64,000 nt of DNA, from contig JAVZCZ010000001.1 in the NCBI GenBank assembly GCA_038874135.1, positions 736,001-800,000 on the forward strand. The letters are read 5' to 3'. Each line of letters opens with the position of its first letter. The stretch's first letter is position 1. Origin of the DNA: Candidatus Woesearchaeota archaeon. Lineage in GTDB: Archaea; Nanobdellota; Nanobdellia; Woesearchaeales; 0-14-0-80-44-23. The notes below the pieces were generated by a model. It saw nothing but the letters and a program-made list of their open reading frames with translations, did no database searches and had not been told where the DNA came from. Positions 18,441 through 47,636 of the stretch are shown in pieces. The position numbers and the translations under genes were made by a program.

Positions 18441-20782
18441 TTTGTGCTCTGCTTTTAGGAATTGTAACTATAATCTTAGGTAGTTATGCCTGCGCTTTGG
18501 AATTTTCACCATCTTCAATTAACGAAGTGCTTTCTATTAACAAGTTTGTTCAGAAAAACATAACTTTGAAGAATGAACTCTCCTATCCGGTAAGGATTGC
18601 TCTGGTGCCCTCTTCTAACATTAGCGATTTATTAGACATCACTCCAAATTCTATTGAAATCGGGGCAAGAGAGTCAAAGAATGTTCTGGTTACAATATAC
18701 GGAAATGTTGATCCTATAAAATTTATTAATCGCTCGTATTACATCTTTAATGGCTTCATAAAGCTTGAAGGAGCTAACGCTCAAATACCTACGGACTTGA
18801 TGGTCACTAATGGAACAATAAACCTGCCCAGCAGCATGGTGCTTTCAGCATCGGCAGGTAAGGATTATTTCACTAAATCAGAAAATCTCTCTTTTATAAT
18901 TGTTGTAACGAATCTTATGACAGGCTCAAAACCAAATGTTACTCTTTTCTATTATTTCCTAATTGATAAAAACTCAGAAATTCCCGTTGGGAACGATTCC
19001 TTCATAATTACTACTTCAAAATCAGTTGTAAAGGAATTCATACCAATGTCTTCAATACCTGATGGCACCTATACTTTCAGGGTTGTAATGTCTTATGCAG
19101 ATAAGAAGAGTGTTGCTGATGTGCCCTTCAGGATATCAACCCCATTTATATTCAGAACATTCTTAGGTATAGCTGTATGGCAGTATATACTCGGAGTGAT
19201 TGCCTTAATAATAATTGGCTTGTTAGTATACTGGCGAAGGAAGCGTGTTTTGGCTTCTCGTCGTTATGGTGTGAGTGTGGATTTGCGTAGTTTTCCTTCT
19301 TCTGGTAGGCTTGTGCGTTTGGGTAAGTTGGCGGAGTATGGGCGTGATTTTTGGTTTGATTTGGATGGTTTGACTACGCATTGTATTGTGGCTGGTGCTA
19401 CTGGTGGTGGTAAGACTGTTGCTGCTCAGGTTTTGGTGGAGGAGGCTTTGAAGGCTGGTGTGGCTGTGGTTGTTTTTGATCCTACGGCTCAGTGGAGTGG
19501 TTTTTTGAGGCCTTGTTCTGATAAGGGTATGTTGTCTTTGTATTCGGGTTTTGGGTTGCGTCGTTCTGATGCTCGGGGTTTTCCGGGTAATGTGAGGCAG
19601 GTGTTGGATGCTCGTGAGGTTTTTGATGTTAGGCGTTTTATGCGTCCTGGTGAGATTGAGATTTTGAGTTTGAATAGGTTGAGGCCTGAGGAGATTGATG
19701 TTTTTGTGGCTAATACTGTTAGGAGCGTGTTTGATGCGGGTTTGGATGAGTGTCGTGAGTTGAGGTTGTTGTTGGTTTATGATGAGGTGCATAGGTTGTT
19801 GCCGCGTTTTGGCGGTTCTGGTGAGGGTTTTGTGCAGATTGAGAGGGCTTGTCGTGAGTTTAGGAAGTGGGGTGTTGGTGTTGTTTTGATTAGTCAGGTT
19901 TTGTCTGATTTTGTTGGTGAGATTAAGGCTAATATTAATACTGAGGTTCAGATGAGGACTCGTGATGAGGGCGATTTGGAGCGTATTCGTGTTAAGTATG
20001 GTGATGCTTATCTTAGGGGTCTTGTGAGGGCTAGTGTGGGTACTGGTATGTTTGAGAATCCCGGTTATAATGGTGGTCGTCCTTTTTTTGTTAGTTTTAG
20101 GCCTTTGTTGCATAGTGTGGTTCGTTTGTCTGATGCCGAGTTGGGTGAGTATAATAGGTTGAATGGGGTGTTGGATGATTTGGAGTTTTGGATTGGCGAG
20201 TTGGAGCGTTTGGGTGTGGACGTGTTTGATTTGAGGTTGGAGTTGAAGTTGGCTTGGGATAAGTTGAGGGTTGGGGGGTTTGGGATGGTGGATGTTTATG
20301 TTGAGGGTTTGAGGCCTCGCGTGTTGGGCGAGTTTGAGCGTTTGGGGAGGCCTGTTCCTAAGCGTGAGGTTAAACGCCTTTCAGATGAGGAGCTTGCAAA
20401 GCAGAGGAAGCTGGCTGAGCAGAGCCGTGCAGAGTTTATAAAAAAGATGGGCATTAAAGAGCAGCAGTCCAAGCAGGAGGAAAAGAAGGAAGAACACATC
20501 GTGCAGCCTTACACTTTTGATAATGGTGCAATGGTTTCGGAGCTTAAGGAGTTGAAAGACGCTATAGAACCTATGAGTGCTGACATCCTCAGAAGCGCGT
20601 TGAGTGGAAACAATAAGCTTTCTGATTGGATAAAGAATGAGCTTAAGAATGAGCAGCTTGCCTCTGAAATTGAGAAGGCGAAGACGAAAAAGGAGATTCT
20701 TGATGCAATAACTGCTGAACTTGATAAAGCAGAAAAGAGCAGTGAGAAATCTGGAACTGATAAAGGCCAAAAGTCTAAGTAG
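18401..20782 (+). CDS. Membrane-anchored HerA/FtsK-superfamily (DUF87-like) ATPase with extracellular Ig-like domains and C-terminal DUF5752-like domain
   Basis: Walker A GATGGGKT, VVFDPT, Walker B LLVYDEVH, REFRKWGVGVVLISQ; TM before the ATPase domain; start uncertain. Confidence 0.85.
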   Translation: MQVKITRQGEKGIICALLLGIVTIILGSYACALEFSPSSINEVLSINKFVQKNITLKNELSYPVRIALVPSSNISDLLDITPNSIEIGARESKNVLVTIYGNVDPIKFINRSYYIFNGFIKLEGANAQIPTDLMVTNGTINLPSSMVLSASAGKDYFTKSENLSFIIVVTNLMTGSKPNVTLFYYFLIDKNSEIPVGNDSFIITTSKSVVKEFIPMSSIPDGTYTFRVVMSYADKKSVADVPFRISTPFIFRTFLGIAVWQYILGVIALIIIGLLVYWRRKRVLASRRYGVSVDLRSFPSSGRLVRLGKLAEYGRDFWFDLDGLTTHCIVAGATGGGKTVAAQVLVEEALKAGVAVVVFDPTAQWSGFLRPCSDKGMLSLYSGFGLRRSDARGFPGNVRQVLDAREVFDVRRFMRPGEIEILSLNRLRPEEIDVFVANTVRSVFDAGLDECRELRLLLVYDEVHRLLPRFGGSGEGFVQIERACREFRKWGVGVVLISQVLSDFVGEIKANINTEVQMRTRDEGDLERIRVKYGDAYLRGLVRASVGTGMFENPGYNGGRPFFVSFRPLLHSVVRLSDAELGEYNRLNGVLDDLEFWIGELERLGVDVFDLRLELKLAWDKLRVGGFGMVDVYVEGLRPRVLGEFERLGRPVPKREVKRLSDEELAKQRKLAEQSRAEFIKKMGIKEQQSKQEEKKEEHIVQPYTFDNGAMVSELKELKDAIEPMSADILRSALSGNNKLSDWIKNELKNEQLASEIEKAKTKKEILDAITAELDKAEKSSEKSGTDKGQKSK
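19239..20394 (+). repeat. 1156 bp direct repeat, copy 1 (partner 23419-24574), G/T-rich, encodes the ATPase domain
   Basis: Sense translations and the overlapping antisense ORFs are identical; offset 4180; boundaries read from sequence. Confidence 0.95.
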
Positions 20783-20890
20783 ATTTCTTATACCTTAACC
20801 AACAATGTGGTATTTATAAACTTAGATTACTTAGTATGCATTTATACACATACACTATTTGTGTCACATTTAAAAATTAGTATATAAAAT

Positions 20891-20906
20891 GAAAATATTT
20901 ATATAT
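20891..20906 (+). promoter_or_regulatory. Putative BRE/TATA promoter for the second RHH pair operon
   Basis: GAAAATATTTATATAT, nearly identical to 42544-42558. Confidence 0.55.
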
Positions 20907-20970
20907 CAATATACATATTTAGTATGAGTTTGTATTCAAAGACCTTGAAAAGGCTTTTTTGGGACCCGAA

Positions 20971-21159
20971 ATGCGCAGTACGCCTGAGAAGCATGGCTCA
21001 AAGAGAATAACCATAACCATAAGCAAGGACCTTTTAGACTTCTTAGATTTAGCTGTGGAGAACAGGCTGTTCGCAAGCAGAAGTCATGCACTTGAAGTCT
21101 TAGTAAGGCGCAGGATGGAGTTTGAGAATGAAGCAAAGAATTACAATTACATTGGATAG
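20971..21159 (+). CDS. Ribbon-helix-helix protein
   Basis: KRITITISKDLLDFLDLAVENRLFASRSHALEVLV; ATG at 20971 is in frame with track ORF 20959. Confidence 0.85.
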   Translation: MRSTPEKHGSKRITITISKDLLDFLDLAVENRLFASRSHALEVLVRRRMEFENEAKNYNYIG

Positions 21160-21319
21160 TGAATGCCTGGCATGGGTTGATGAAAAGGTAAAGAATAGAA
21201 GCTTTGCTAATCGGAGCCACGGCTTTGAATTTTTAATAGCGCGATTCAAGGAGCGCCAAGAACTTCAGAATCTTCTCAACTCGCGAAATTCAAAGGAGGA
21301 AGACTTAAAACATGAATAA
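21128..21319 (+). CDS. Ribbon-helix-helix protein, paralog of the preceding gene
   Basis: MKQRITITLDSECLAWVDEKVKNRSFANRSHGFEFLI. Confidence 0.85.
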   Translation: MKQRITITLDSECLAWVDEKVKNRSFANRSHGFEFLIARFKERQELQNLLNSRNSKEEDLKHE

Positions 21320-24300
21320 AAATCCTACCTTCAGGATACTGGAACGGGACAGGCAGCTGGAAAGGAGAAGACAGCAGCTGTACATCCTATTAGGCATCTT
21401 AGGAGTTTTACTAGCAGTTGGTGTTATACTTCTGATAAGAATGTTCATAGGATACGCAGTTCTGGAAAGCAGGGCTGGCACAATAACACAACTTAATATA
21501 CAGCTCAGATACTCAACACACATATGGGCTGGATTTTACGGATTGGCATTCCGCGTTCCCGGATACACTGAGCAGCAGTCTGCAGTTGCAGTCGGCGGCA
21601 CAGTCTTCTTGCAGCACTTAGTATTTGACTGCTTAAAAACTACAGACGGCAACATTCCTGAGGTATATGCCAGTACTTCAAGAAACATTGACTGGAATTC
21701 ACTCCAGCCAGCAACTCCAGACTTGATTGACAGCTACCTACAAGTAGATCCTTCAGATATAACCTCTGCTTCAAACACATTTACAGAAACAATGTCAATA
21801 CTCTTAGGAGACAGAGAAATCACAAATATTGCTGCAACGCACACCAAAAAGTTCGGAGTTCCGGACAGCACGGACTTTGATATAGGCTTCTTAAAAGATT
21901 CGTTGGGAAATCTCGTATTTGTAACCCATGTAACTCCAACTTATACCAAAGGATTTAACAACCAAACTATAAACTACCAAATGCTCCTTCCAGTACAAGC
22001 AGGAACAGCTCCAGTATACTACTTCTTCTCAGACCCATATGACGAGTGCCAAGCAGGGCTTGAAGCTCTCAAAAATGCTACCATATTCGGAAGAGCCATA
22101 GACAATGCAACAGGCCTTCCACTTGAAAATGTTACAGTTAATCTTCATACTGCTACAGTTCTTACCAACTCTACAGGAGACTATTACATAGCAATATTTA
22201 ACGGCACCTACACCCTAGTAGCTTTCAAGCCGGGATATTACACCTTTGTTGCAACAAACATCACTCTCCCAGCTGACAATCTGTCTACACCTCAATCTGA
22301 AAATATTGTCGAATTTAATATATCCCTCATTCCCAACCCTGGAAACCCAACTGGACTCGGAAACCTAACTGGCACTGTAACTGATAAAGACTTCGGAATA
22401 CCCCTCTATAATGTAACAGTGTATGTAAACGGCAGAATCGCTAAGACAAACATTACAGGCCAATACCTACTTGAACTGCCAGCAGGAAATCATTCTCTTA
22501 TAGCAATGAAGGAAAACTACAGAACATACTACACTCCAAATGTAACTATACTGCCTGGAAACACCACTGAATTTAATTTCAGTATGGAATATGCAGAGCC
22601 AGAAATAAAAGAAACTCCTGGATATCCGCTAAATACCTTCGTTTCCAACCTACTCAAACAGGCAGTGCAGAGGCCTCAAATAATACTCACTCATAAGATT
22701 GATACAAAAGAGATATTTGAAACATTAAAAGTTGGCTCATATGTCCAGCGCTCATTCAATATAACGAGTTACAGGCCTGCCGAGTCCAAAGTTGAGTTTG
22801 AAGTCATAGGAAGTGCTGCACAGCTGGTAAAGGTTGACAAGAGCAGCTCAATAATACCTCCAAGGGGTGCAGAAAACTTCACCCTTACAATTCTAGCCAA
22901 TGTGCCTCCAGGCATATATACCGGAACATTCCTAATCAAAGGAGACCTTGAAGACAGAATCCCGATAAAGATAGTTGTTTATGAGAAGGATAGACTTCCA
23001 ATAGAGGCTCTTCTCCTAGAAGTAGTGCCAATAAAAAAGATAATCAGCCCAGGAGAACTATTTGAATATAAGGTCAGCATGACAAACCTGCTGAGGGACA
23101 CCCCATACAACATCACCCTTTCATACAATATCACCTCGCGCTCTTCAAATCTTACTATTCCCGTTGAAGAAGAGACGAGACTCTTGGAAACTCAGCTTTC
23201 CTACCTTAAGTATTACAAGCTTCCCAAAGACCTGCCAGAAGGAGAATACTTCCTTGAAACTAGAGCGGAATTCTTAGAACTATCAACAAACACAAAATCG
23301 CTATTCATAGTTAAGAAGCCAATTTACATGTATGCATTATTCGGAATACTTCCCCTCTGGCAGCTTTTCATAATAATAGTTTTCACCTCCCTCATGACCT
23401 TCGCAGGATTAATGTATCGGAAGCGTGTTTTGGCTTCTCGTCGTTATGGTGTGAGTGTGGATTTGCGTAGTTTTCCTTCTTCTGGTAGGCTTGTGCGTTT
23501 GGGTAAGTTGGCGGAGTATGGGCGTGATTTTTGGTTTGATTTGGATGGTTTGACTACGCATTGTATTGTGGCTGGTGCTACTGGTGGTGGTAAGACTGTT
23601 GCTGCTCAGGTTTTGGTGGAGGAGGCTTTGAAGGCTGGTGTGGCTGTGGTTGTTTTTGATCCTACGGCTCAGTGGAGTGGTTTTTTGAGGCCTTGTTCTG
23701 ATAAGGGTATGTTGTCTTTGTATTCGGGTTTTGGGTTGCGTCGTTCTGATGCTCGGGGTTTTCCGGGTAATGTGAGGCAGGTGTTGGATGCTCGTGAGGT
23801 TTTTGATGTTAGGCGTTTTATGCGTCCTGGTGAGATTGAGATTTTGAGTTTGAATAGGTTGAGGCCTGAGGAGATTGATGTTTTTGTGGCTAATACTGTT
23901 AGGAGCGTGTTTGATGCGGGTTTGGATGAGTGTCGTGAGTTGAGGTTGTTGTTGGTTTATGATGAGGTGCATAGGTTGTTGCCGCGTTTTGGCGGTTCTG
24001 GTGAGGGTTTTGTGCAGATTGAGAGGGCTTGTCGTGAGTTTAGGAAGTGGGGTGTTGGTGTTGTTTTGATTAGTCAGGTTTTGTCTGATTTTGTTGGTGA
24101 GATTAAGGCTAATATTAATACTGAGGTTCAGATGAGGACTCGTGATGAGGGCGATTTGGAGCGTATTCGTGTTAAGTATGGTGATGCTTATCTTAGGGGT
24201 CTTGTGAGGGCTAGTGTGGGTACTGGTATGTTTGAGAATCCCGGTTATAATGGTGGTCGTCCTTTTTTTGTTAGTTTTAGGCCTTTGTTGCATAGTGTGG

Positions 24301-24854
24301 TTCGTTTGTCTGATGCCGAGTTGGGTGAGTATAATAGGTTGAATGGGGTGTTGGATGATTTGGAGTTTTGGATTGGCGAGTTGGAGCGTTTGGGTGTGGA
24401 CGTGTTTGATTTGAGGTTGGAGTTGAAGTTGGCTTGGGATAAGTTGAGGGTTGGGGGGTTTGGGATGGTGGATGTTTATGTTGAGGGTTTGAGGCCTCGC
24501 GTGTTGGGCGAGTTTGAGCGTTTGGGGAGGCCTGTTCCTAAGCGTGAGGTTAAACGCCTTTCAGATGAGGAGCTGCAGAAGGAAAAGGAGATTGCTATGC
24601 AGGAACATGAGAAAGCAAAACAGCAGGAAGCAGGACAAACTTCACAAAATTCAGATTCCAAGACAGAAACTTCCCAAATTCAAAACACAAAAGTTGAAGA
24701 GCAGCCCAGCCAAAATGAAAAGGCCGAGAACCAAGAGAATGCAAAATCCTCAAATGAAAATAAAATTAAAAGAGTAAGGGAGGGTAAAAAGCAGAGGATG
24801 AGGAAATCAGCAAGTTCGGAAAAAAATAATAAAAAAAGAGGTGCTAAAAAATGA
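21312..24854 (+). CDS. Membrane-anchored HerA/FtsK-superfamily ATPase with N-terminal family-A (WxGxYG) domain, two carboxypeptidase-regulatory-like domains and Ig-like domains
   Basis: N-terminal TM; AGTITQL..WAGFYG..YQMLLP..YYFF domain; DNATGLPLENVTV and DKDFGIPLYNVTV repeats; second TM; ATPase domain identical to that of 18401-20782. Confidence 0.85.
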   Translation: MNKNPTFRILERDRQLERRRQQLYILLGILGVLLAVGVILLIRMFIGYAVLESRAGTITQLNIQLRYSTHIWAGFYGLAFRVPGYTEQQSAVAVGGTVFLQHLVFDCLKTTDGNIPEVYASTSRNIDWNSLQPATPDLIDSYLQVDPSDITSASNTFTETMSILLGDREITNIAATHTKKFGVPDSTDFDIGFLKDSLGNLVFVTHVTPTYTKGFNNQTINYQMLLPVQAGTAPVYYFFSDPYDECQAGLEALKNATIFGRAIDNATGLPLENVTVNLHTATVLTNSTGDYYIAIFNGTYTLVAFKPGYYTFVATNITLPADNLSTPQSENIVEFNISLIPNPGNPTGLGNLTGTVTDKDFGIPLYNVTVYVNGRIAKTNITGQYLLELPAGNHSLIAMKENYRTYYTPNVTILPGNTTEFNFSMEYAEPEIKETPGYPLNTFVSNLLKQAVQRPQIILTHKIDTKEIFETLKVGSYVQRSFNITSYRPAESKVEFEVIGSAAQLVKVDKSSSIIPPRGAENFTLTILANVPPGIYTGTFLIKGDLEDRIPIKIVVYEKDRLPIEALLLEVVPIKKIISPGELFEYKVSMTNLLRDTPYNITLSYNITSRSSNLTIPVEEETRLLETQLSYLKYYKLPKDLPEGEYFLETRAEFLELSTNTKSLFIVKKPIYMYALFGILPLWQLFIIIVFTSLMTFAGLMYRKRVLASRRYGVSVDLRSFPSSGRLVRLGKLAEYGRDFWFDLDGLTTHCIVAGATGGGKTVAAQVLVEEALKAGVAVVVFDPTAQWSGFLRPCSDKGMLSLYSGFGLRRSDARGFPGNVRQVLDAREVFDVRRFMRPGEIEILSLNRLRPEEIDVFVANTVRSVFDAGLDECRELRLLLVYDEVHRLLPRFGGSGEGFVQIERACREFRKWGVGVVLISQVLSDFVGEIKANINTEVQMRTRDEGDLERIRVKYGDAYLRGLVRASVGTGMFENPGYNGGRPFFVSFRPLLHSVVRLSDAELGEYNRLNGVLDDLEFWIGELERLGVDVFDLRLELKLAWDKLRVGGFGMVDVYVEGLRPRVLGEFERLGRPVPKREVKRLSDEELQKEKEIAMQEHEKAKQQEAGQTSQNSDSKTETSQIQNTKVEEQPSQNEKAENQENAKSSNENKIKRVREGKKQRMRKSASSEKNNKKRGAKK
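23419..24574 (+). repeat. 1156 bp direct repeat, copy 2
   Basis: Matches 19239-20394. Confidence 0.95.
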
Positions 24855-25675
24855 AGTCAAAAAAATCAGTTAAGTATAGAGCGAGAGTTCACAATAAGGC
24901 TAACTCAAGCAAGAAAGATTTGAGAAAAAAGAAGGTTCGCATTGAGAGAAAAAATAGCACTAAAACAATTAGTAAAGAAACATCACCTAAAAAATCCAAA
25001 GCTTACTTAAAAAAGCGATTTGGCAAGATTGATAACAGAGTTATTAAAAATAAAAATAATAAAGTAAAACCAGGAGCTTTAAAGCACAGAAAAAAAGAGA
25101 AGAAGCAGAATGTTCAAAAAAGAAGAAAAGCAATGCAAAAAAAGCCAGCGCCTGAAAACGCAGCCGCAGCAACCAACCAAGTACAGACAAATACGACTTC
25201 AACAGCTCAGCAGGCAAATTCTCAAATTGAAACACATTCAGATGTGGAAGCGCTTCAAAAAGAATACTCAGATATCAACAGCTATCTGGTTCAGCGAAGA
25301 AAAGCGGGAGTTGACACCTTCATACAGGAACTGAAACTTTTTTCAATACCGTCAAAAATTCAGCTTTTAAAGGCAGAATACTCAAAAGATTATGCTGACA
25401 AGATTAGAGTTCAACTTAATGAGATTAGAGAAGAGTTAGAAAAAGCAGAACCTCAACCGACCCCCCTTGACCTTCCTAAAGTTCAGCCGAACCAGCCGAA
25501 TCCATTCTCAGAGCAACAGCTCACAAGTCAGAATAATAATCATCCCTTAACGCAGGATGCAGAAAACTATTCAAAAGAACTAGCTGAGAAGCGCCTTTCA
25601 AATAAAATAAAAAATTCTCTGAGAAATGCTTCCAAAAAAGTTATGTCCATATTCAAAAAAGGAGGTGGAAATTAG
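24851..25675 (+). CDS. Hypothetical cytoplasmic protein, Lys-rich N-terminus plus helical domain
   Basis: 274 aa, ATG overlaps upstream stop; no TM or signal peptide. Confidence 0.7.
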   Translation: MKSKKSVKYRARVHNKANSSKKDLRKKKVRIERKNSTKTISKETSPKKSKAYLKKRFGKIDNRVIKNKNNKVKPGALKHRKKEKKQNVQKRRKAMQKKPAPENAAAATNQVQTNTTSTAQQANSQIETHSDVEALQKEYSDINSYLVQRRKAGVDTFIQELKLFSIPSKIQLLKAEYSKDYADKIRVQLNEIREELEKAEPQPTPLDLPKVQPNQPNPFSEQQLTSQNNNHPLTQDAENYSKELAEKRLSNKIKNSLRNASKKVMSIFKKGGGN

Positions 25676-26833
25676 ATGTTCAACCTTTTCAAACGGAAAA
25701 ACTCTGAAGAAGTTCCCAATCAACAATCAGCTAACGAAGATCTGACAGCTCCAGCACAAACCCAGCAAACTGCTACTACGCAAGGACAGGAAAACCTCGC
25801 TGCAGAATTAATGAAGATTAAGGCAGAAGTGGAAGCATTTTCAGATGTAAGAAAAGCCACAAATGAGAAACTTACAAGACTAAGCGAGCAGATTGGAGAG
25901 CTAAGAGCAATGATTGCAGACAGAGACAAGGTGATGAATCAGATAGAGGTTAAAGCTACAAAGGCAGCAGATCTCGTAGCCACAGTTAAGCCTGAAGAGC
26001 AGATGGTAGAAATAAAGCGTCAGGATGCAAAACTTGAAGCGTTTAAAGCATCTCTGGAGAGCAATGAACTTTTGATGAAGAGAGTTTTAGACGAACTTAA
26101 AGAGATGAGAACAAAGATAGCTTCCTTCCGCGGAATTGAGGAACTAATCAACCTTAACAATGAAGTAAAATCTGAAATAATTGAAATAAAAAAGGTTGAA
26201 GCAAACATACAAAAGCATGCAGACAAGGTAGAAACGATATTTGCAGAGGTTCAGAAAAGATTCGTTGACTTTACAAAAATTGATGATAGGATAGCATCCA
26301 ACACGAAGCAAATAGCAGAGCTATCAAAGAACTTGGACGGAGTGAAGGCAACTGCCTCGGCAGCAGCCACAAAAAAGAGTGTAGATGAACTAACTTCCAA
26401 ATTCTTAGAAATGAAAGACCAACTCTCAGAACTGGTTTCAACAATAAACAAGCGCCTCTCCTTAGTGGAGAAGAACAATTCTGCAGCATTTGAAGCTTTT
26501 GAAAAAGCGATAATGCACAAGTTTAAACTTTCAAAAGAGGAAGTAGCTGTATTTAAAGAGCAAGTACAGCAGAATCAGCAAGCCCAGCCAACTCAGCAAA
26601 TATCCCAGCCGCAGGATGTCTCTCAAAAGAGCAATACTCAAGAGCAAAATCTTCAGACCAGTGAAGCACCCGAAGCTCTACCACAGCCGCAAGCCTCTCA
26701 GCAGGTTCAGCAGCCGCAGAGTGAGCCAAATGAGCAAGACTCAAAAAAGCCTGACAGCAGCATTCAGAAAGAGATAAGAGAAGCAGCCAAGTTTGCTAAA
26801 AGGATAAAAAGCAAAAAAAGAAAGAAGAAATGA
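25676..26833 (+). CDS. Long coiled-coil cytoplasmic protein
   Basis: Heptad-rich (EKLTRLSEQIGELRAMIADRD...), Gln-rich tail, GGAGGTG RBS, translationally coupled. Confidence 0.75.
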   Translation: MFNLFKRKNSEEVPNQQSANEDLTAPAQTQQTATTQGQENLAAELMKIKAEVEAFSDVRKATNEKLTRLSEQIGELRAMIADRDKVMNQIEVKATKAADLVATVKPEEQMVEIKRQDAKLEAFKASLESNELLMKRVLDELKEMRTKIASFRGIEELINLNNEVKSEIIEIKKVEANIQKHADKVETIFAEVQKRFVDFTKIDDRIASNTKQIAELSKNLDGVKATASAAATKKSVDELTSKFLEMKDQLSELVSTINKRLSLVEKNNSAAFEAFEKAIMHKFKLSKEEVAVFKEQVQQNQQAQPTQQISQPQDVSQKSNTQEQNLQTSEAPEALPQPQASQQVQQPQSEPNEQDSKKPDSSIQKEIREAAKFAKRIKSKKRKKK

Positions 26834-33870: not shown

Positions 33871-36800
33871 AACGCAGCATAACTTTTGGAATAATTTTTC
33901 TACTTTTAATAGCATTATCTCTAAAAATTTCCAGTGCGAGCTGTCCGGAAATAATACTTTCATCCAACACCACTATAAAAGATGTAGATATAAAAATAAA
34001 AGTTTCAGGGCAGACACAAGAGTCAGAATTAGTGATAAGAACGCCTTCAGGTCCGTATCGTCTTTTAGGAGATATTCCTTCCCTTACAAGCTTTACTCCA
34101 AAAGATGTAGGTAACTACTCTGTTGAAGTTTGGCAGGACAAAGTGCTGTGTGACATAAAAAATTTTACCGCACTACCTCACAATAACTCGACACTATTCC
34201 TTCCGCCAATACTTTCCACAGATAAAAAAGAATACCACTTAGGTGAAGCTGTTAGAATTTCACTCTCACCAGAATATTACGGTTACTCAATTGAAGGTTT
34301 AAATTTAAAACTGTTGACAGGACAGCAATCCTACTCTCTCTTAGGGGAAATATCTGAGGATATAGAATTCCGACCTGTTTTTGAGGGTAACTATACAATT
34401 CTCTTATTAGACTCCATTGGAAATACTCTTGCTTCTGAAAGCTTTTCCGTCTACGCTTTGAATAGTTACTTTGTTAATAACTTATCTATTAAAAAACGAT
34501 TTTCGGACAAATTTGAATACAACATCAGCACTAATTCAGAAGACATGATTGTTGAATTCTCAAACTCCTTCATTAAAAGACTAAACCTAAAGAAACTATC
34601 TTCAAGTAATCTGGCGATAGTTAGGATTTCAGAGTTACTGCCGGAAGAGAGGAGCCGTCTGAATATTCCTACAATTGGAGGTGAAATTAAAGAATCTTTT
34701 GAATTAGATCCTTCCGCCCTAAACTTTTCAGAAGGTGAACTAACAATTGTCCCTTCAGGAAATGAGCTGTGGAAGTGCACTGATTGGAATTATGATGCTC
34801 AGTATTGTGTCGGAAGTTGGATCAAGCAGCAGAATCTTGTTCCCGGTGTTGAAAATGTAATTAAGTTTAACCTTTCCGATCCAGGATATGCTATTGTTGC
34901 AACTGCTAACATAACTTCAATAGCAGCAGCAACCCTCTCTGAAAACTCTTTTGTAGTAGCATATTGCGATGATACAAATGATAGAACTGCTTTCAAGGTT
35001 TTCTGGGCTAATGGGAGTGTAAGAACTAATGAGGTGATAGTTGATTCAACTACTGGAAATTGTGGTTACACCTCAGTTTCTGTTTCAGCACTTACCAACA
35101 ACTCTTTTGTTATCGGATGGATTGATACTGCCAGCAGTTATGCCAGCTTCGCTGTTTATGATGCCTCTGGAAATGTTATTACTCCAAGGGTGGATGTGGA
35201 TACTACTGCTGGTACTTCCCGTTCTGTGAGTGTGTCTGCTTTTAATAGTTCTGCTTTTGTTTTTGGTTGGTATGATCAGGCTTCTGCTTATGCTTCTTTT
35301 AGGACTTTTAGTTCTTCTGGTGTGGCTATTTCTTCTGTTGTTAATGTGGATACTACTGCTGGTACTTGTAATGCTGTTTCTGTTTCTGCGGTTAATTCTT
35401 CTGCTTTTGTTTTTGGCTGGTATGATCAGGCTTCTTCTGATATGACTTTTCGTACTTATACTTCTTCTGGCGTTGCGATTTCTGCCGTGACTGATGTGAA
35501 TACTAAGGTGGGTACTGGTTCTTTTTCTGTTTCTGTTGCTGCTTATAATTCTAGTGCTTTTGTTATTGTTTGGTATGATCAGAGGCTGGGTTATGTTAGT
35601 TTTCGTCAGTATTCTGTTGCTGGTGTTCAGATTGGGAGTCAGGTTAATCCGGATACTGCTGTTGGGACTACTGCTTCTGGTGTTTTTGTTTCTTCTGTTG
35701 GTGTGAATTCTAGTGTTTTTGCTGTGGGTTGGAATGATTTGACTACTGATGTTGTTAGTTCTGTGAGGACTTATAGTGGTGCTGGTGCTGCTGTTTCTTC
35801 TGAGGTGGTTGTGCAGGCTAATGCTTTGAAGTATAATGCTCTTGCCGGCTACTACCCTGCTACAGGCATAGGTTTCTGCAATGGAAACTTTGTAGCAATA
35901 ATTGTTAATACTTCTTCGCAGGCATTTTTTAAAGCATACATGCCTAATGGAAGCGAATGGGACGGAAACTGTCCTGATGTTATACCGCCTCAAGTTGTTC
36001 TGAATAGTCCTCAGCAAGCCGCTGTCTTCTATAGTGATACTGTGGATTTTAATTTTACAGTAACCGACAATGTAGATTTAGTAATTCCAAACTGTACCCT
36101 TTGGATAAACACTTCATCAACATTCTCTCCAAACATAACAATTTACAATATAACCTCTAATAAGATGAACAACATAACTCTATCTCAAATTCCAGACAAC
36201 AAATACATTTGGAATGTCAGGTGTTATGACAATGCAGGCAACTCAGCATTTGCTTCTTCAAATTTTTCATTATTTATCAACAAGAATCCACCTCAAATCT
36301 TGAACCCCCTCCTGAATGAAAGTACAGTAAATCAGAGCCATTCAGTAAAGTTTAATGTCTCAATAACCGATTCATATGGTATAGACTCTGCATATATAAC
36401 TATGATGTACCCAAACGGTTCATCAAATAATTATTATCTTAATAGAAGTGGGAATGAATTTTACTTCATAATTAATAATACAATCCAGATAGGAACATAT
36501 TCTGTGATATATGTGTGGGCTAATGATACCCTCGGACAAAACTCTTCTCTAACCCTTTCAGATCTCCAGTTTAATGTCACGCCTTCACCACCTGCTCAAT
36601 TCAACCTTTTAAGTCCCCCGAATGCAACAGAGTCAACAAACCTGCGACCAAACTTGACTTGGGAGACATCTTACGATGAGACATTCCTTAATTATACTAT
36701 TCAGATTTCTCAGGATGAAAACTTCGCAACAGTACTCTTTACATATTATAATCCGGGTGTTTATAATACTTCAAGAGTGCTGGATTATGCCCTAGAAGCG

Positions 36801-39800: not shown

Positions 39801-41705
39801 AGGGCTACAACTGGAAGCACTGCTGTTGCAGAATGGCAGGTAGTTTCGTGGAGTGGTGCGAGAGTGCAGAGTGGAAACATCTCTTTCATAACAGCTTCGC
39901 AGAGCGTCCCCATAGAAGAGGTTAATCTTTCCAGGAGCATGCTGATATTCAGCACTGCTGTAACTGGCAACACCAGGATAGGAGCTAACATGATTTTTGG
40001 CAACTTTACCAATTCCACAACAGCATACTTCTCAAGAACGAATGCTGCAGGAACAGCATATGTTTCCTGGTTTGCAGTTGAGCTTCCCCAATACTACTCA
40101 GTACAAGCCGGAACAGTTTCAATCACAGCAGATACCAATGTTCAAATATACCCCGTGCGCACTGAGAAGACATTTCATCTGCACTCAGCTTCAGCAGTAG
40201 GAGCAACCAGCACTACCTACTCTGATGCCCTAATAAGAGCCGAGCTAACAAATAGCTCAAATCTTATGCTGGATAAGGTGTCTGGCACAAATACCAACTA
40301 TGTTGCCTGGTTTGTAGTAGAAGAAAAATATCTTTCAGCTAATTCGGGAATGGAAGAAGCTTTAATGGCATACAACTACAACTCCACATTGACAGGGCTT
40401 TACACTCTAAGTTGGGTTTCCGGAAAGAGCCCGGTGGGCAACTACACCTTTGTATACTCTGCAACAAAAACTAATTACTCATCTGCAAGGGCATACTCCA
40501 CATTTGAGATAATTCCAGACACAACTCCGCCCAATGTTACGCTTGTAAGCCCACTTCAACTTGAAAAGAGGGGCGTCGGAAATATAATCTTTTCCTACAT
40601 ACCTTATGACTTGAACCTTCTAAACTGCACACTCTACCTTGGAAAGGACGGAACTTTTTCTCCGAACATTACGAGCACGAGTCCAATAAATAATGCAGTA
40701 AACAATCTTTCAGTATACTTAGACATCGGATTATACACTTGGAATGTGCTTTGTAGGGACAGTGAAGGAAACTCTGCATTTGCTCTGCAGAACAGGACAC
40801 TTAACATAACAGGCCCAGACCTATACCCTGTTGCTGTTTGGTTTAGCAACACGCCCAGGATTGAGACCGTTAACACAACCATCTTTGTTAACATTTCTAA
40901 TAAGGGGCTTTCTGATTGTACTAAAAACTTCACTGTTGAGTTCAGGAGAAGTGGGCTGCTCATAGGCAATCTGAGTGTGCAGGGGCTGCTGATTGGCGAA
41001 GTTAAAAGCTTGAACTCTTCATTCCTGTTAGGTCCCGGCATTAATAATTTAAGTATTAGCATAGATCCTGATAACAGGATTAACGAGTCGGACGAGTCAA
41101 ACAACAATGCTTATGAGGTTATTGCTGTTGAGTTTTATCAGTACTATTACGGAAATCTTAGCTTTTTACAGGTTTTGAGCAAGTCCTCAAACGAGTCTGT
41201 ATTCACTTGGGAAAATTCAAATCCTGAAGATGGGGTTATTTTAGTTGCTGATATTGATTCAAAATTTGAGATTGGAAACTTAAGAGCCCTGACTCGGAAT
41301 GCAAATGGGGATCCAGTTATAAATGATCTTTCAGAATTGGATGAGGCTTTTAATTCTTCAAATCTTAACGATTCTATTAAGAATGTGTGGGGAAACGGCA
41401 CTGACATTCCAATAATGACTGCCAACTTTACGATAGGACAGTTTAATATTTCTAACGTTCCGGTAGCATATTCCAGAAATTCCACTTCTTCAATTACGGG
41501 AATACTCTGGGACTCTGCAGATGATTTAAGCCACAACCTTCAGTATGACAGCTCTGATAGGGAAGATATAGTTCTAATCACAAAGATTCACCCGTTAGCA
41601 GACTGTTCTTTTGGTAGCTGCAATTATGAGATAAGAATTCCAGCAGCTCTACGCTCTTACAAGCCTAACACCGACCTCGTAGTTTTTTACACCATGCTAA
41701 ACTGA
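33867..41705 (+). CDS. Giant secreted Ig-repeat surface protein/adhesin (2612 aa) with propeller-like repeats, DUF2341-like segment, lectin-like repeats, CARDB-like and C-terminal family-A domain
   Basis: Signal peptide; 50-aa SVSVSA.NSSAFV.GWYD repeats; WWNTSFKYRRPI..YYVYYGN; V(N/D)..R(A/S)F..W.V(I/V)E repeats; IDPDNRINESDESNN. Confidence 0.85.
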   Translation: MKRSITFGIIFLLLIALSLKISSASCPEIILSSNTTIKDVDIKIKVSGQTQESELVIRTPSGPYRLLGDIPSLTSFTPKDVGNYSVEVWQDKVLCDIKNFTALPHNNSTLFLPPILSTDKKEYHLGEAVRISLSPEYYGYSIEGLNLKLLTGQQSYSLLGEISEDIEFRPVFEGNYTILLLDSIGNTLASESFSVYALNSYFVNNLSIKKRFSDKFEYNISTNSEDMIVEFSNSFIKRLNLKKLSSSNLAIVRISELLPEERSRLNIPTIGGEIKESFELDPSALNFSEGELTIVPSGNELWKCTDWNYDAQYCVGSWIKQQNLVPGVENVIKFNLSDPGYAIVATANITSIAAATLSENSFVVAYCDDTNDRTAFKVFWANGSVRTNEVIVDSTTGNCGYTSVSVSALTNNSFVIGWIDTASSYASFAVYDASGNVITPRVDVDTTAGTSRSVSVSAFNSSAFVFGWYDQASAYASFRTFSSSGVAISSVVNVDTTAGTCNAVSVSAVNSSAFVFGWYDQASSDMTFRTYTSSGVAISAVTDVNTKVGTGSFSVSVAAYNSSAFVIVWYDQRLGYVSFRQYSVAGVQIGSQVNPDTAVGTTASGVFVSSVGVNSSVFAVGWNDLTTDVVSSVRTYSGAGAAVSSEVVVQANALKYNALAGYYPATGIGFCNGNFVAIIVNTSSQAFFKAYMPNGSEWDGNCPDVIPPQVVLNSPQQAAVFYSDTVDFNFTVTDNVDLVIPNCTLWINTSSTFSPNITIYNITSNKMNNITLSQIPDNKYIWNVRCYDNAGNSAFASSNFSLFINKNPPQILNPLLNESTVNQSHSVKFNVSITDSYGIDSAYITMMYPNGSSNNYYLNRSGNEFYFIINNTIQIGTYSVIYVWANDTLGQNSSLTLSDLQFNVTPSPPAQFNLLSPPNATESTNLRPNLTWETSYDETFLNYTIQISQDENFATVLFTYYNPGVYNTSRVLDYALEANKKYYWQVIAYDTFGNYKYSTNYFSYITDTLAPSIVLNMPGNLSFINSTQVNFTFTPSDANTISRCTLYLNVTGAFLPNTSITQVVKDTPNLIQAEIKDEGAHLWNILCNDSAGNSAFAPQNFTFISDLNPPSIQLLSPPNGSTYNISNFVNFTINASDRISAVYRCTLIINGQPVLTSYSVQDGVPYTFQYFLLNGNYSWQAECYDLNGHSNLSYSYNISVLVIDSVPPIVTLTSPAQDQYLSSKTVLFNYTPQDATGIKNCTLFIDGNENETDFSVRNLEPNYFLLEYLEDGVHNWTVLCFDNSSQQNSYAPTPVRFSIDTTPPSVILISPEDGVLTNNSLVTFVYAPSDANLENCSLYTNSSSEWMMESTDFYPINNQQNVFQKSVADGVLVWNVVCYDKGGLSSFADFNRTLNVDTTPPRYANITLIPTSPTEYSPYGEYYFNITWIDDFNLSSVYFESNFSGTFENESPNHFENIYYVHKTGLNSGTYQIRWYATDSAKNQNETPAIQYDITKAEPNLTLKINNYSYNLTVEEDSIVNISAELLEPPGAYLSIYINNNLITNGTSPIYTTYNFTEPGSYNVTASFEGSQNYLSAFRTIIVNVSDTTPPIIVPIFPQNNSFIGENHIVFSYNVTDSSQIANCSLFINRTLNQSNTSIQNGINYFEVDFQDGNYSWHLSCYDEFSNYAESPEIYFTSIRSDKIIASAHPQQPQYQKGETAILIGNTTSIFGTPLDTNIYANVIRGNTTIEWWNTSFKYRRPIFINNSMNASTYLQALINISNLSASISNCSELRIVMNNSFEHTLIPSEVLLEEGNASCLLRFNANASALATNENNYYVYYGNSGAGAQQQLPELAGISVQRKSVVGTTTSITDTMSEVNTSRAFLLFSANVASSTPAVWEITGRILSSTQVVFERYSGTTSANISWQVIEGSEINVQRGTASFGATQSNTTILIDSVNLNESFIIITGRTSSTTAGNANMGFFRAMFLNSTAIYIERATTGSTAVAEWQVVSWSGARVQSGNISFITASQSVPIEEVNLSRSMLIFSTAVTGNTRIGANMIFGNFTNSTTAYFSRTNAAGTAYVSWFAVELPQYYSVQAGTVSITADTNVQIYPVRTEKTFHLHSASAVGATSTTYSDALIRAELTNSSNLMLDKVSGTNTNYVAWFVVEEKYLSANSGMEEALMAYNYNSTLTGLYTLSWVSGKSPVGNYTFVYSATKTNYSSARAYSTFEIIPDTTPPNVTLVSPLQLEKRGVGNIIFSYIPYDLNLLNCTLYLGKDGTFSPNITSTSPINNAVNNLSVYLDIGLYTWNVLCRDSEGNSAFALQNRTLNITGPDLYPVAVWFSNTPRIETVNTTIFVNISNKGLSDCTKNFTVEFRRSGLLIGNLSVQGLLIGEVKSLNSSFLLGPGINNLSISIDPDNRINESDESNNNAYEVIAVEFYQYYYGNLSFLQVLSKSSNESVFTWENSNPEDGVILVADIDSKFEIGNLRALTRNANGDPVINDLSELDEAFNSSNLNDSIKNVWGNGTDIPIMTANFTIGQFNISNVPVAYSRNSTSSITGILWDSADDLSHNLQYDSSDREDIVLITKIHPLADCSFGSCNYEIRIPAALRSYKPNTDLVVFYTMLN
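35187..35842 (+). repeat. 656 bp direct repeat, copy 1 (partner 45768-46423), G/T-rich, contains internal ~150 bp units
   Basis: Sense and antisense translations identical over the tract; offset 10581. Confidence 0.95.
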
Positions 41706-42632: not shown

Positions 42633-42671
42633 GCTTATTTACAAGCTTAAAGCAAGCAAGAGGGTGTCAAC

Positions 42672-43442: not shown

Positions 43443-43512
43443 GGGAAAGCCATACTTGCTTTCTCTTATTAATTTTCACCTCCAGGCGAGGCGAGCAAGC
43501 GAGTGATGAAAA

Positions 43513-43716: not shown

Positions 43717-44405
43717 AAAAAGTATTCATACTAATCTTGCTGGCAGCATTTCTCGCATTCTCAGTCCGCGCAGTTCCGACTGGCCCTGTTATAATGAGCA
43801 ACAGTACAGACTACGGTCCATCTAATGCTGGCACACTGGTCAGCACTGCTGGAGGAACGATTACAACATATCTATTAAATGCTACTCAGCAGAACCTTAG
43901 ATGGAAGGCATATGTCGGAAATGTGACTGGAAGGTATGTGCTTCAGGACTCTGCCAACTACTCCATCTACGACTGGAGCTTCACAATAAACTCGGGAGAG
44001 GTATATGCCACGAGAGCGTCCTCAGTCAACTGGGCAAATGTGAACTGCGCAAGCCCCGCACAGATAAGTTCAGAAGAATCAGCACTGAATCAGAACTCAG
44101 CCAATCCCGATACCATCTCAAAGACATTCAACACAAAATTTCACAACGCCTTTTCAGTAGGAACTGTCCCAATAAGTGCCAACTCTTGCAACTCCACAGC
44201 AACTAATGTTAACGGAGCCCCTCAAAGCACCTACTTTCAAGAAGTGCTCTTACATGATCAAGCGAGCGCTTTCATATACGCAACTCTTTTGAGCATTGGA
44301 CAGACTGGTTATAATAATCAGCATTTTGATTTTCAAATGATAGTGCCTGAAGACGAGATTACTCCGGGAAACACTCAGTACTACCTGTATGTAGAGCTCA
44401 TATGA
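43713..44405 (+). CDS. Secreted family-A protein (putative filament subunit), paralog of 42672
   Basis: Signal peptide; AGGTITT..WKAYVGNVTG..GEVYA..WANVNC..GYNN..DFQMIV..YYLYVEL. Confidence 0.8.
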   Translation: MKKVFILILLAAFLAFSVRAVPTGPVIMSNSTDYGPSNAGTLVSTAGGTITTYLLNATQQNLRWKAYVGNVTGRYVLQDSANYSIYDWSFTINSGEVYATRASSVNWANVNCASPAQISSEESALNQNSANPDTISKTFNTKFHNAFSVGTVPISANSCNSTATNVNGAPQSTYFQEVLLHDQASAFIYATLLSIGQTGYNNQHFDFQMIVPEDEITPGNTQYYLYVELI

Positions 44406-44412
44406 GCCAGAG

Positions 44413-45330
44413 GTGATTAAATTGAAAATCAAGCAAGCCATTCAAGCATTGGCAGTGGGACTTCCTCTGGCATTCCTGCTCTACTTTTGGACTGCCTCAC
44501 TAATATTATTTGCAGGCAAGGCTGAAGCAGTTTCATCCTGGAATGTTAATGCTACAGTCAATGTAACAAACGCTCCGCCAACAGTTGTGAGCGTGCTTTT
44601 AGACGACAATGTAACATCGCCTGCTGACACAATTGACCTAGTAGCAGGGGGCACTCAGCTAGTTTACTGCAACGCTACCGTGAATGATACTAACGGGTAC
44701 TTAGACATAACTAGCGCTAGGGCTGTGCTCTACCACTCTTCCTCAACCCCCAATGCAGCTGATAACAACGAGACGCACTACACTAACAACTCATGCACAC
44801 TACTCGCCGGCTCAGGCATATCCAGACCTGTTTCCTGCGCATTCAATATGCTTTACTACGCAACTAACGGCACTTGGACTTGTAATGTAACTGCTTTTGA
44901 CTCAGATAATGCCAACGGCACCGGCATAGATACTGCAAATGTGAGCATACTTGTAGCACTTAACATCTCTACACAGGTTCTAAACTATGGAAACCTTGCT
45001 CCACTGCAGGAATCCAGCCCGGTTACAGAAACAATAACAAACCACGGCAATGTGCAGATTGACCTCGTGCTGAATGGAACAGACATGCCCTGCACTTCAG
45101 TAGGAATAATAACTCCAAACGCACAGCATTATAATGTTACAGGAACAGGAACGACTTATGCCACAATGACTCCCCTGCAGTACAATCCCGTGACCGAAAC
45201 CTCATTTAACCTTGCGAAGAGGACTGACGCTGCTGAGAGCACAAGGGCAACCTACTGGAAAATCATACCTCCAGTAGGAACCAAGGGGATATGCACAGGA
45301 AATGTAACAATAGCAGCAGTAGTGGGATAA
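44413..45330 (+). CDS. Secreted family-B protein (two beta-sandwich domains, pilin/WxL-like C-terminus)
   Basis: N-terminal hydrophobic leader; LLDD..IDL.AG..CN.T..D.NG..YYA.NGTWTCNVT; YG..AP..ITN.GN..ID; YW..P.G.KG.C.G. Confidence 0.75.
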   Translation: MIKLKIKQAIQALAVGLPLAFLLYFWTASLILFAGKAEAVSSWNVNATVNVTNAPPTVVSVLLDDNVTSPADTIDLVAGGTQLVYCNATVNDTNGYLDITSARAVLYHSSSTPNAADNNETHYTNNSCTLLAGSGISRPVSCAFNMLYYATNGTWTCNVTAFDSDNANGTGIDTANVSILVALNISTQVLNYGNLAPLQESSPVTETITNHGNVQIDLVLNGTDMPCTSVGIITPNAQHYNVTGTGTTYATMTPLQYNPVTETSFNLAKRTDAAESTRATYWKIIPPVGTKGICTGNVTIAAVVG

Positions 45331-45377
45331 ACTTTTTTTATAAAACTTTTTAAATATATTCTCATTTTAAATGGCTA

Positions 45378-47636: not shown

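What the first reader, a model, noticed from the sequence alone, without database searches (positions are those of the whole stretch)
19239..46423. Identical intragenic repeats are recoded to G/T, with the composition switch at the identity boundaries
Seen: in 19239-20394/23419-24574 the first 60 codons I read all end in G or T. The in-register antisense ORF (~290 aa) has no F/Y/C/W and only four G/A residues inside the tract, so C- and A-ending codons are nearly absent. The same holds for 35187-35842/45768-46423. For that pair, protein homology continues on both sides (SFV.AYCD..CGYTSV.VSA upstream; LAGYYPATGI..C...FV..I.NTS.QAFF..Y..NG..W.G.C downstream), but those flanks are diverged at silent sites and of ordinary A/C-rich composition. 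So an old duplication has a core that is both homogenised and keto-skewed. Inference: recurrent gene conversion or copying through a long-lived single-stranded or RNA intermediate imposes A>G/C>T-like (deamination-type) or A-depleting pressure only on sequences that have an identical partner. That would be a repeat-restricted mutational regime I do not recognise from prokaryotes.
Basis: partly seen in the sequence, partly recalled or inferred. Interest (0 to 1): 0.9.

Follow-up and report, generated by a model that had tools for sequence, protein, structure and literature searches.

The report
GRINS skewed repeats in DPANN archaeon
The G/T-recoded identical repeats are real and match 'GRINS', strand-skewed gene-conversion repeats described in bacteria in 2021 whose cause is unknown; here they occur in a tiny archaeon, their strand polarity flips at the likely replication origin, and they track the repair enzyme NucS, which gives a testable mechanism.

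Summary
Window 19239-20394 equals 23419-24574 (1156 nt) and 35187-35842 equals 45768-46423 (656 nt). Both are 72-75% G+T, and about 98% of codon third positions are G or T. Independent contigs from two runs carry the sequence at double depth.

This is not an unknown regime. It meets the length, identity and skew thresholds of GRINS (Nivina et al. 2021, PMC8256042), which that paper reports in bacteria and eukaryotic PKS genes; it does not mention archaea.

- Four-fold sites are T>>G.
- A>T changes dominate against a same-genus ortholog.
- I found no reverse transcriptase.

The "repeats only" claim also fails. A 1.36-kb tract at 8093-9451 is mostly single copy.

New here:
- Two related lineages keep the same ATPase pair 99.8-100% identical and fully skewed, although their synonymous sites are saturated between lineages. 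So gene conversion and the bias are ongoing.
- Polarity follows the side of orc1/cdc6, not transcription, in this genome and a second one (21 of 23 loci).
- Across 301 genomes of the order, heavy tract load goes with NucS/EndoMS (22 of 119 against 2 of 182). NucS is blind to exactly the A/C, A/A and C/C mismatches.

Earlier scan notes had flagged similar skewed tracts, and GRINS itself, in other genomes.

The parts
19239..20394 (+). GRINS copy 1. It covers the cytoplasmic HerA/FtsK-like ATPase domain of the 793-aa membrane protein (gene 18401-20782). Third positions are 98% G/T over 19238-20371.
   Evidence: separate double-depth unitig
23419..24574 (+). GRINS copy 2. It is identical to copy 1 and covers the ATPase domain of the 1180-aa paralog (gene 21312-24854).
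35187..35842 (+). GRINS pair 2, copy 1. It contains ~50-aa (150-nt) repeat modules inside the 2612-aa surface protein (gene 33867-41705). The flanks are homologous to copy 2 but diverged and unskewed.
45768..46423 (+). GRINS pair 2, copy 2. It is identical to copy 1 and lies in the 752-aa protein (gene 45378-47636).
8093..9451 (+). Third keto tract (453 codons, third positions 98% G/T) in a secreted Cys-rich protein (gene 8000-10330). It is mostly single copy and shows that a partner is not required.
8089..8300 (+). Internal direct repeat of the Cys-rich tract. Its partner is 8647-8858 (99% identical).
8647..8858 (+). Second copy of the internal repeat of the Cys-rich tract.

Best explanation
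What it is. [quoted passage not shown] Every weakly constrained site in them is driven to G/T on one strand and A/C on the other.

Proposed mechanism (inferred, not shown). The bias runs along the keto/amino axis because that is the blind spot of the only mismatch-repair enzyme I found in this organism, NucS/EndoMS. NucS cuts G/T, G/G and T/T mismatches but not A/C, A/A or C/C.

The steps would be:
1. DNA of lagging-strand polarity is newly made or switches template. This happens during ordinary lagging-strand synthesis, gap repair, or copy-choice between repeats.
2. Any site where that strand carries A or C opposite a template A or C goes unseen and becomes fixed or is copied to the partner.
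3. The reciprocal keto-keto mismatches are cut and lost.
4. The result is a one-way ratchet. The lagging-polarity strand fills with A/C and the leading-polarity strand fills with G/T.

Repeats run fastest because each conversion event exposes heteroduplex to this filter and also spreads the result, so the identity boundary and the skew boundary coincide.

Still open: what singles out particular single-copy tracts.
For: GRINS membership:
- Length, identity and skew thresholds are met (definition).
- As in GRINS, the skew is strongest at codon position 3 but also shifts amino-acid composition. Positions 1/2/3 are 0.65/0.60/0.95 keto here, against about 0.47/0.46/0.4 in ten orthologs.

Ongoing conversion and bias:
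- In L031 and L032 the same two paralogs are 99.8-100% identical and 98-100% G/T at third positions.
- Five paralog pairs in more distant genomes are 67-82% identical and unskewed.
- Between lineages, four-fold sites inside the tract differ at 0.26-0.38. That is saturation for a T/G-only alphabet. Two-fold sites differ at only 1-3%, while flanks are saturated at 0.44-0.69.

Replication polarity:
- The only orc1/cdc6 gene, at genome position 588.6 kb, sits at the cumulative GC-skew extreme.
- Strong tracts to its left are A/C on the + strand. Those to its right, including all five in the window, are G/T. Both coding orientations occur on each side.
- The same rule holds in an unrelated single-contig genome, G099.
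- Pooled, 21 of 23 loci obey it (p=6.6e-5).

NucS link:
- G000 has a full-length NucS (E 3e-54 to EndoMS, PDB 5GKE) and no match to MutS domain V.
- NucS mismatch specificity and its suppression of homeologous recombination are from PMC4838380 and PMC8228993.
- In 301 genomes of the order, at least 300 pattern hits occur in 22 of 119 NucS+ genomes against 2 of 182 NucS- genomes (p=5e-8). With one genome per family it is 13 of 55 against 0 of 81 (p=3e-6).
- The purine/pyrimidine control pattern shows no such link.
- Wild-type, NucS+ C. glutamicum gains A>G over T>C on the leading strand, 48 against 13. The authors attribute residual transitions to C/A mismatches, which EndoMS cannot cut (PMC6159521). 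That is the same polarity as here.
Against: - The NucS link is a correlation among related genomes.
- NucS is present without heavy skew in most NucS+ genomes, including G029, whose paralogs are diverged and unskewed.
- Two genomes with many hits lack a NucS match (G148 is 85% complete, G154 is 91%).
- Some pattern hits are low-complexity DNA.
- Single-copy tracts are not explained by conversion alone. Examples are 8860-9451 here and 11 of 19 tracts in G099.
- No genome-wide leading-strand keto bias is visible in G000. Something local must therefore raise the rate by orders of magnitude.
- The origin is inferred from orc1 position and skew only, and the background GC skew beside orc1 has opposite signs in G000 and G099.
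- Two loci break the polarity rule (203.5 kb in G000, 544.7 kb in G099).
- The GRINS paper reports both polarities within about 1 kb in Streptomyces, and GRINS in phyla that use MutS/MutL.
Confidence: 0.4

Rival explanations
1. Skew first, conversion second. This is the life-cycle idea of the GRINS authors. Some local strand-biased mutation process, such as error-prone synthesis or tautomer mispairing, creates a skewed tract in one copy without involving NucS. The low-complexity G/T-rich DNA then recombines more easily, so it spreads to paralogs and stays identical.
For: Single-copy skewed tracts exist. The GRINS paper reports them too and proposes this order of events. From my own recall, not checked here, RecA and Rad51 are reported to pair G/T-rich DNA preferentially.
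Against: It does not say why the axis is keto/amino, why polarity flips at orc1, or why tract load tracks NucS. In pair 2 the flanks are only weakly similar, so a first transfer of a ready-made tract with boundaries exact to one codon at both ends is hard to picture.
Confidence: 0.25
2. Selection on the DNA or RNA itself. One example would be selection for strands that cannot fold on themselves or that lack palindromic restriction sites. Another would be selection on codon use or translation speed of these surface proteins.
For: A strand made mostly of G and T has almost no self-complementarity (my reasoning, not computed). The state has been held beyond synonymous saturation, as selection could do.
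Against: Both G/U-rich and A/C-rich mRNAs occur, so an RNA-level or codon-level benefit is unlikely. It would need selection at hundreds of silent sites in a tiny-genome symbiont. It gives no reason for replichore polarity or the NucS link.
Confidence: 0.07
3. One reading: deamination (A>G, C>T) of a long-lived single strand or an RNA/cDNA intermediate, acting only on repeats.
For: The net direction on the keto strand includes A>G and C>T. Two-fold sites are all G or T.
Against: Four-fold sites are T>>G (p<1e-12). A>T and G>T changes dominate against the G001 ortholog. No reverse transcriptase was found. Tracts exist in unique DNA. Polarity ignores the transcribed strand.
Confidence: 0.03
4. 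Assembly or polishing artefact, or foreign DNA imported from a donor with a skewed genome.
For: None positive. Identical kilobase repeats in a metagenome-derived genome are a common source of error.
Against: Independent contigs from two runs carry the tract at twice the flank depth with no differences. Runs from two other studies hold versions about 91% identical. An artefact would not respect codon phase. The tracts sit at orthologous positions in syntenic loci of three lineages.
Confidence: 0.01

Closest known systems
[quoted passage not shown]
   Same: Both are duplicated coding regions of 0.3-1.4 kb with intense GC and TA skews of the same sign. The skew is strongest at third codon positions. 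Gly, Val, Cys and Trp codons are enriched. Both are tied to gene conversion. Single-copy skewed regions are also seen. The mechanism is unknown.
   Different: These are in an archaeon (DPANN, Woesearchaeota), not in bacteria or eukaryotic PKS genes. They lie in membrane ATPase and surface-protein genes, not in polyketide synthases. The genome is AT-rich (40% GC), so T dominates over G. Copies are 100% identical rather than 75-95%. Polarity is uniform within a replichore, whereas Streptomyces GRINS can switch sign within 1 kb.
GC-biased gene conversion of eukaryotes
   Same: A repair bias acting on heteroduplex DNA during gene conversion mimics selection and drives silent sites to a fixed composition.
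   Different: That bias favours G/C on both strands equally. Here the axis is keto against amino, and it is strand-polar.
NucS/EndoMS non-canonical mismatch repair and its residual leading/lagging mutation asymmetry (PMC4838380, PMC6159521)
   Same: The axis is the same: G/T, G/G and T/T are cut, A/C, A/A and C/C are not. The polarity is the same: the leading strand gains G from A in wild-type C. glutamicum.
   Different: The known effect is a weak, genome-wide asymmetry in mutation-accumulation lines. I found no paper in the held library that mentions both GRINS (as genetic repeats) and NucS.
Strand asymmetry of animal mitochondrial DNA (G/T-rich heavy strand)
   Same: A comparable degree of keto skew, which also reshapes amino-acid content.
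   Different: The mitochondrial skew covers the whole genome, is graded, and is attributed to time spent single-stranded. Here the tracts are 0.3-1.4 kb with codon-sharp edges.
Repeat-induced point mutation (RIP) of fungi
   Same: A mutational regime enriched in duplicated DNA.
   Different: RIP makes C>T changes on both strands, destroys genes and makes the copies diverge. Here the genes stay intact and the copies stay identical.

Membership tests
GRINS (Nivina et al. 2021) | Region longer than 500 bp | tested here: met
   1156 nt and 656 nt
GRINS (Nivina et al. 2021) | More than 80% DNA identity to another region of the same gene cluster | tested here: met
   Both pairs are 100% identical. 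Partners lie 4.2 kb and 10.6 kb apart in one surface-protein locus.
GRINS (Nivina et al. 2021) | Mean absolute GC skew and TA skew above 0.15 (150-nt windows, 30-nt step) | tested here: met
   ATPase pair 0.60/0.45, pair 2 0.27/0.55, Cys-rich tract 0.57/0.53, whole window 0.18/0.17
GRINS (Nivina et al. 2021) | GC and TA skews correlated (keto/amino axis), strongest at codon position 3 | tested here: met
   Mean GC and TA skews are both strongly positive in each tract, and position 3 is 0.98 keto. Within a saturated tract the window-to-window r is negative (-0.36, -0.48) in the two repeat pairs, because G and T trade off.
GRINS (Nivina et al. 2021) | Products of gene conversion (paralogs more alike than orthologs) | tested here: met
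   Paralogs are 99.8-100% identical within each of three lineages. Orthologs are 75-87% identical in protein.
GRINS (Nivina et al. 2021) | Located in assembly-line PKS or a biosynthetic cluster (the original setting, not part of the definition) | tested here: not met
   The genes are HerA/FtsK-like membrane ATPases and Ig/CARDB surface proteins. The paper itself reports GRINS in other gene families.
Diversity-generating retroelement (template/variable repeat pair) | Reverse transcriptase gene, and adenine-specific differences between the two repeats | tested here: not met
   No RVT_1 match in the genome. The repeats are identical, and C is depleted as well as A.
Replication-associated strand skew | Polarity switches at the origin, independent of gene orientation | tested here: met
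   8 of 9 loci in G000 and 13 of 14 in G099 follow the side of orc1/cdc6. Both coding orientations occur on each side. The origin position is inferred, not mapped.
Replication-associated strand skew | Gradual and chromosome-wide | tested here: not met
   Tracts are 0.3-1.4 kb with sharp edges. Background third-position keto content is 0.45-0.63 with no clean replichore pattern.

The most novel reading that the evidence does not exclude
GRINS-type tracts are the footprint of NucS/EndoMS-only mismatch repair. NucS cannot see A/C, A/A or C/C mismatches. Heteroduplex or newly made DNA of lagging-strand polarity therefore ratchets to A/C, and the leading-polarity strand ratchets to G/T. The ratchet runs fastest where repeats exchange strands. 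If true, this would explain the unexplained keto/amino axis of GRINS in Streptomyces (also a NucS organism) and in archaea. It would also define a strand-polar 'keto-biased gene conversion', a counterpart of GC-biased gene conversion.
Probability: 0.35. Interest if true: 0.85.

Novelty: new member of a known kind. Interest (0 to 1): 0.66.

Why it matters
GRINS were described in 2021 as elements that recode proteins and speed up their diversification, with no known cause. This case makes three contributions.

First, it extends GRINS to Archaea, to a 0.9-Mb symbiont genome, and to the surface and ATPase genes these cells probably use to contact hosts.

Second, the state is shared by lineages whose silent sites are saturated, so the process must still be running.

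Third, it gives two handles on the mechanism that I did not find in the held literature:
- polarity that flips at the likely replication origin regardless of transcription;
- a strong link, specific to the keto/amino axis, with the mismatch endonuclease NucS.

Both can be tested with existing nucS mutants and public genomes.

On the practical side, such tracts create long spurious antisense ORFs, break short-read assemblies, and inflate DNA identity between distant relatives.

Tried and rejected
- RNA evidence: no RNA holder was listed among the public runs, so expression could not be examined.
- Genome-wide replichore signal: 10-kb and 30-kb skew profiles of G000 are weak and irregular. Polarity was therefore judged against orc1 only.
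- Same-genus copy of the ATPase tract: the G001 contig C8 ends at the start of the tract, and no further copy was found in G001. That tract could not be compared within the genus.
- Polarising changes from the half-recoded tandem unit at genome 672 kb: the unskewed half is too diverged to count as ancestral, so it shows only that T-ending codons face A- or C-ending ones.
- Codon-frame scan: my first scan placed several tracts on the wrong strand, in antisense ORFs. This was corrected.
- Second Orc1-like match in G099: it has 25% identity and lies at 97 kb. It does not behave as a polarity switch.
- NucS in the genomes behind L031 and L032: not checked.
- Paper search on strand asymmetry and GT-rich repeats in archaea: nothing relevant. 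The GRINS lead came from earlier scan notes.
- Structure prediction, complex prediction and RNA-family tools: not used, because they do not bear on the question.
Full report
**1.

The two repeat pairs are exactly as stated. Window 19239-20394 equals 23419-24574 (1156 nt) and 35187-35842 equals 45768-46423 (656 nt). Both are 100% identical, with G+T of 0.753 and 0.715. The genome mean is 0.512, with SD 0.056 in 300-nt windows.

The first pair encodes the cytoplasmic HerA/FtsK-like ATPase domain of two membrane proteins of 793 and 1180 aa. The Walker A motif reads GATGGGKT. The second pair lies in a 2612-aa Ig/CARDB surface protein and a 752-aa protein.

Codon third positions are 98% G/T over 378 and 219 codons.

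In pair 2, paralogous homology continues on both sides but is diverged and of ordinary composition. The switch in composition coincides with the identity boundary within one codon at both ends.

**2. It is not an artefact**

Contigs built independently from two runs of the source hot-spring study carry the ATPase repeat as a separate 1153/1156-nt unitig, at about twice the depth of its flanks and with no differences. Runs from two other studies (2017 and 2025) hold contigs about 91% identical over just this tract. The differences in those contigs across the laid stretch are dominated by G<->T changes.

An artefact would also not respect codon phase.

**3. It is lineage-specific recoding**

Ten orthologous ATPase domains from related genomes (41-56% protein identity) have keto fractions of about 0.47/0.46/0.4 at codon positions 1/2/3. 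Here the values are 0.65/0.60/0.95. Silent sites are saturated, and amino-acid composition has been dragged along too.

**4. It is a known kind: GRINS**

GRINS are defined as follows:
- duplicated regions longer than 500 bp;
- more than 80% identical to another region of the same cluster;
- mean absolute GC and TA skews above 0.15.

The paper also reports that the skews are correlated and strongest at third positions, that Gly, Val, Cys and Trp are enriched, and that the mechanism is unknown.

Both pairs pass these thresholds: 0.60/0.45 and 0.27/0.55, against 0.18/0.17 for the whole window.

The paper covers bacteria and eukaryotic PKS genes, and the word 'archaea' does not occur in it. The four other papers in the held library that mention both 'GRINS' and 'nucleotide skews' all concern PKS or NRPS.

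**5.

(a) The tracts are not restricted to repeats.
- Gene 8000-10330 has a 1.36-kb tract (8093-9451, third positions 0.98 G/T), of which only a 212-nt pair is repeated.
- In G000, 10 of 12 strong tracts have a partner of at least 200 nt.
- In a second genome only 8 of 19 do.
- Repeats are therefore hugely enriched but not required.

(b) The skew does not follow the coding strand. Giant surface-protein genes at genome positions 343-346 kb (+) and 672-680 kb (-) carry the mirror image, A/C-ending codons.

(c) The signature is not deamination.
- Four-fold sites are 74-86% T and 13-22% G. In the mirror tracts they are 71-75% A and 23-25% C.
- The background is half purine, so transitions alone predict about 1:1 (rejected at p<1e-12).
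- Against the same-genus ortholog (G001), synonymous four-fold A sites became T in 16 of 18 cases and G sites became T in 19 of 23. Outside the tract there is no such pattern.

(d) No reverse transcriptase was found in this closed genome, which is 99.4% complete.

**6. Conversion and bias are ongoing**

Two relatives share the same gene order: L031 (ATPase 87% identical in protein) and L032 (75%). In each, the short and long paralogs are 99.8% and 100% identical in DNA over the ATPase domain, with third positions 0.98-1.00 G/T.

Five paralog pairs in more distant genomes are 67-82% identical and unskewed.

Between the three skewed lineages:

| Sites compared | Fraction differing |
|---|---|
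| Four-fold sites inside the tract | 0.26-0.38 |
| Two-fold sites inside the tract | 0.01-0.03 |
| Flanking two-fold sites | 0.44-0.50 |
| Flanking four-fold sites | 0.60-0.69 |

The value of 0.26-0.38 is what saturation gives for an alphabet of about 78% T and 22% G. More than half of all differences inside the tract are G<->T.

So the lineages separated long enough ago to saturate silent sites, yet each kept its two copies identical and keto-only. A single past event would have decayed. The process, or selection, is still acting. This is concerted evolution.

**7. Polarity follows replication**

The genome has one orc1/cdc6 gene, at 588.6 kb, which is where the cumulative GC skew has its extreme.
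- Strong tracts to its left (293 kb, 343-346 kb) are A/C-rich on the + strand.
- Those to its right (672-782 kb, including the window) are G/T-rich.
- Co-directional and head-on genes occur on both sides.
- The exception is a milder tract at 203 kb.

I fetched a second single-contig genome from another family, G099 (1.13 Mb, NucS+). Its orc1 ortholog is at 440 kb.
- All 9 keto tracts lie to the right of it (477-870 kb).
- 9 of 10 amino tracts lie to the left (12-278 kb).
- Both coding orientations again occur on each side.
- One repeat family has an inverted copy on the other side of orc1.

Counting loci rather than copies, 21 of 23 obey the rule (p=6.6e-5). The strand that runs 5'->3' away from orc1, that is leading-strand polarity, is the keto strand. 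The origin itself is inferred, not mapped.

**8. The NucS link**

G000 encodes a full-length NucS/EndoMS (NucS_N plus NucS_C, E 3e-54 to T. kodakarensis EndoMS, PDB 5GKE). It has no match to MutS domain V.

Published properties of the enzyme:
- EndoMS binds and cuts G/T, G/G and T/T mismatches and has little or no effect on A/C, A/A and C/C (PMC4838380). Its blind spot is therefore exactly amino-amino mismatches.
- NucS suppresses recombination between diverged sequences (PMC8228993).

I scanned 301 genomes of the order for 58 in-phase K positions with at most 2 mismatches, and separately for NucS.

| Comparison | NucS+ | NucS- | Test |
|---|---|---|---|
| Median hits per genome | 57 | 12.5 | p=1e-10 |
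| Genomes with at least 300 hits | 22 of 119 | 2 of 182 | p=5e-8 |
| Same, one genome per family | 13 of 55 | 0 of 81 | p=3e-6 |

I ran a purine/pyrimidine control pattern on G000 and its 40 closest relatives. It gives 2 hits in G000, against 1244 for the K/M pattern, and shows no link with NucS.

In wild-type C. glutamicum, A>G exceeds T>C on the leading strand by 48 to 13. The authors attribute residual transitions to C/A mismatches that EndoMS cannot cut (PMC6159521). That is the same polarity as the tracts. None of the papers in the held library that contain both words links GRINS (as genetic repeats) to NucS.

**9. Proposed mechanism (inference)**

When DNA of lagging-strand polarity is newly made or switches template between repeats, two things can happen at a mismatched site:
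- If it carries A or C opposite a template A or C, the mismatch is invisible to NucS and survives or is transmitted.
- If the mismatch is keto-keto, it is cut and lost.

This is a one-way ratchet towards A/C on the lagging-polarity strand and G/T on the leading-polarity strand. It works as a strand-polar analogue of GC-biased gene conversion.

The model accounts for:
- the keto/amino axis;
- the flip at orc1;
- independence from transcription;
- enrichment in converting repeats;
- the coincidence of identity and skew edges;
- persistence of the state.

It may also account for the excess of T over G, because A/G mismatches are cut less well than T/C.

It does not explain why particular single-copy stretches are hit, or why most NucS+ genomes carry few tracts. 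I put it at about 0.35-0.4. The main rival is the GRINS authors' 'skew first, then conversion' idea, at about 0.25.

**10. Verdict**

This is a new member of a known but mechanistically unsolved kind, and within what I could search it is the first from Archaea. The added value is the replication-polarity rule and the NucS association. Both are correlative and need the controls listed under next steps.

Noticed in passing
window 14922-26833; loci L031 and L032: A conserved Woesearchaeota gene block. It runs PKD-domain surface protein, then a short TM-anchored HerA/FtsK-like ATPase, then a long paralog with CarboxypepD_reg domains, then two small genes. Hundreds of relatives exist, and some ATPase domains are fused to proteins of 5,000-11,000 aa.
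   Followed up: partly
genome 293142-293555 (outside the window): A 63-nt tandem repeat in a 657-aa coiled-coil protein. Every third position is A or C (G+T about 0.11 on the + strand). It is the most extreme tract in the genome.
   Followed up: partly
genome 672009-672461 and 343774-344052 (outside the window): A tandem unit of about 98 codons in a 2315-aa surface protein. One half is identical between units and the other half is recoded in only one unit. An inverted 94-98% copy sits in a 3073-aa gene on the other side of orc1.
   Followed up: yes
genome 588647-588907 (outside the window): The single orc1/cdc6 gene sits at the maximum of the cumulative GC skew. An earlier scan note placed the origin at the CRISPR island near 505-520 kb instead.
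   Followed up: partly
genome 909816-909956 and 6-146: The contig ends overlap (141 nt, 97% identical). This is probably leftover redundancy from circular closure.
   Followed up: no
genome 10-50 kb (outside the window): A broad region with strong T>A on the + strand (TA skew up to 0.36) and no matching G>C. It differs in kind from the keto tracts.
   Followed up: no
G099 544651-544950 and 545341-545700: An amino tract and a keto tract lie 400 nt apart. This local sign flip resembles those described for Streptomyces GRINS.
   Followed up: no
G001 contig C8 end (L021) and G034 contig C2 start: Short-read contigs of relatives end or start at or inside skewed tracts. These elements probably fragment assemblies and so may be under-counted in draft genomes.
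   Followed up: no
window 19223-20113, 23409-24293, 35085-36017, 45678-46502 (minus strand): Long antisense ORFs (274-310 aa) are a by-product of the missing A at third positions. They are not genes, but gene callers could mistake them for genes.
   Followed up: yes
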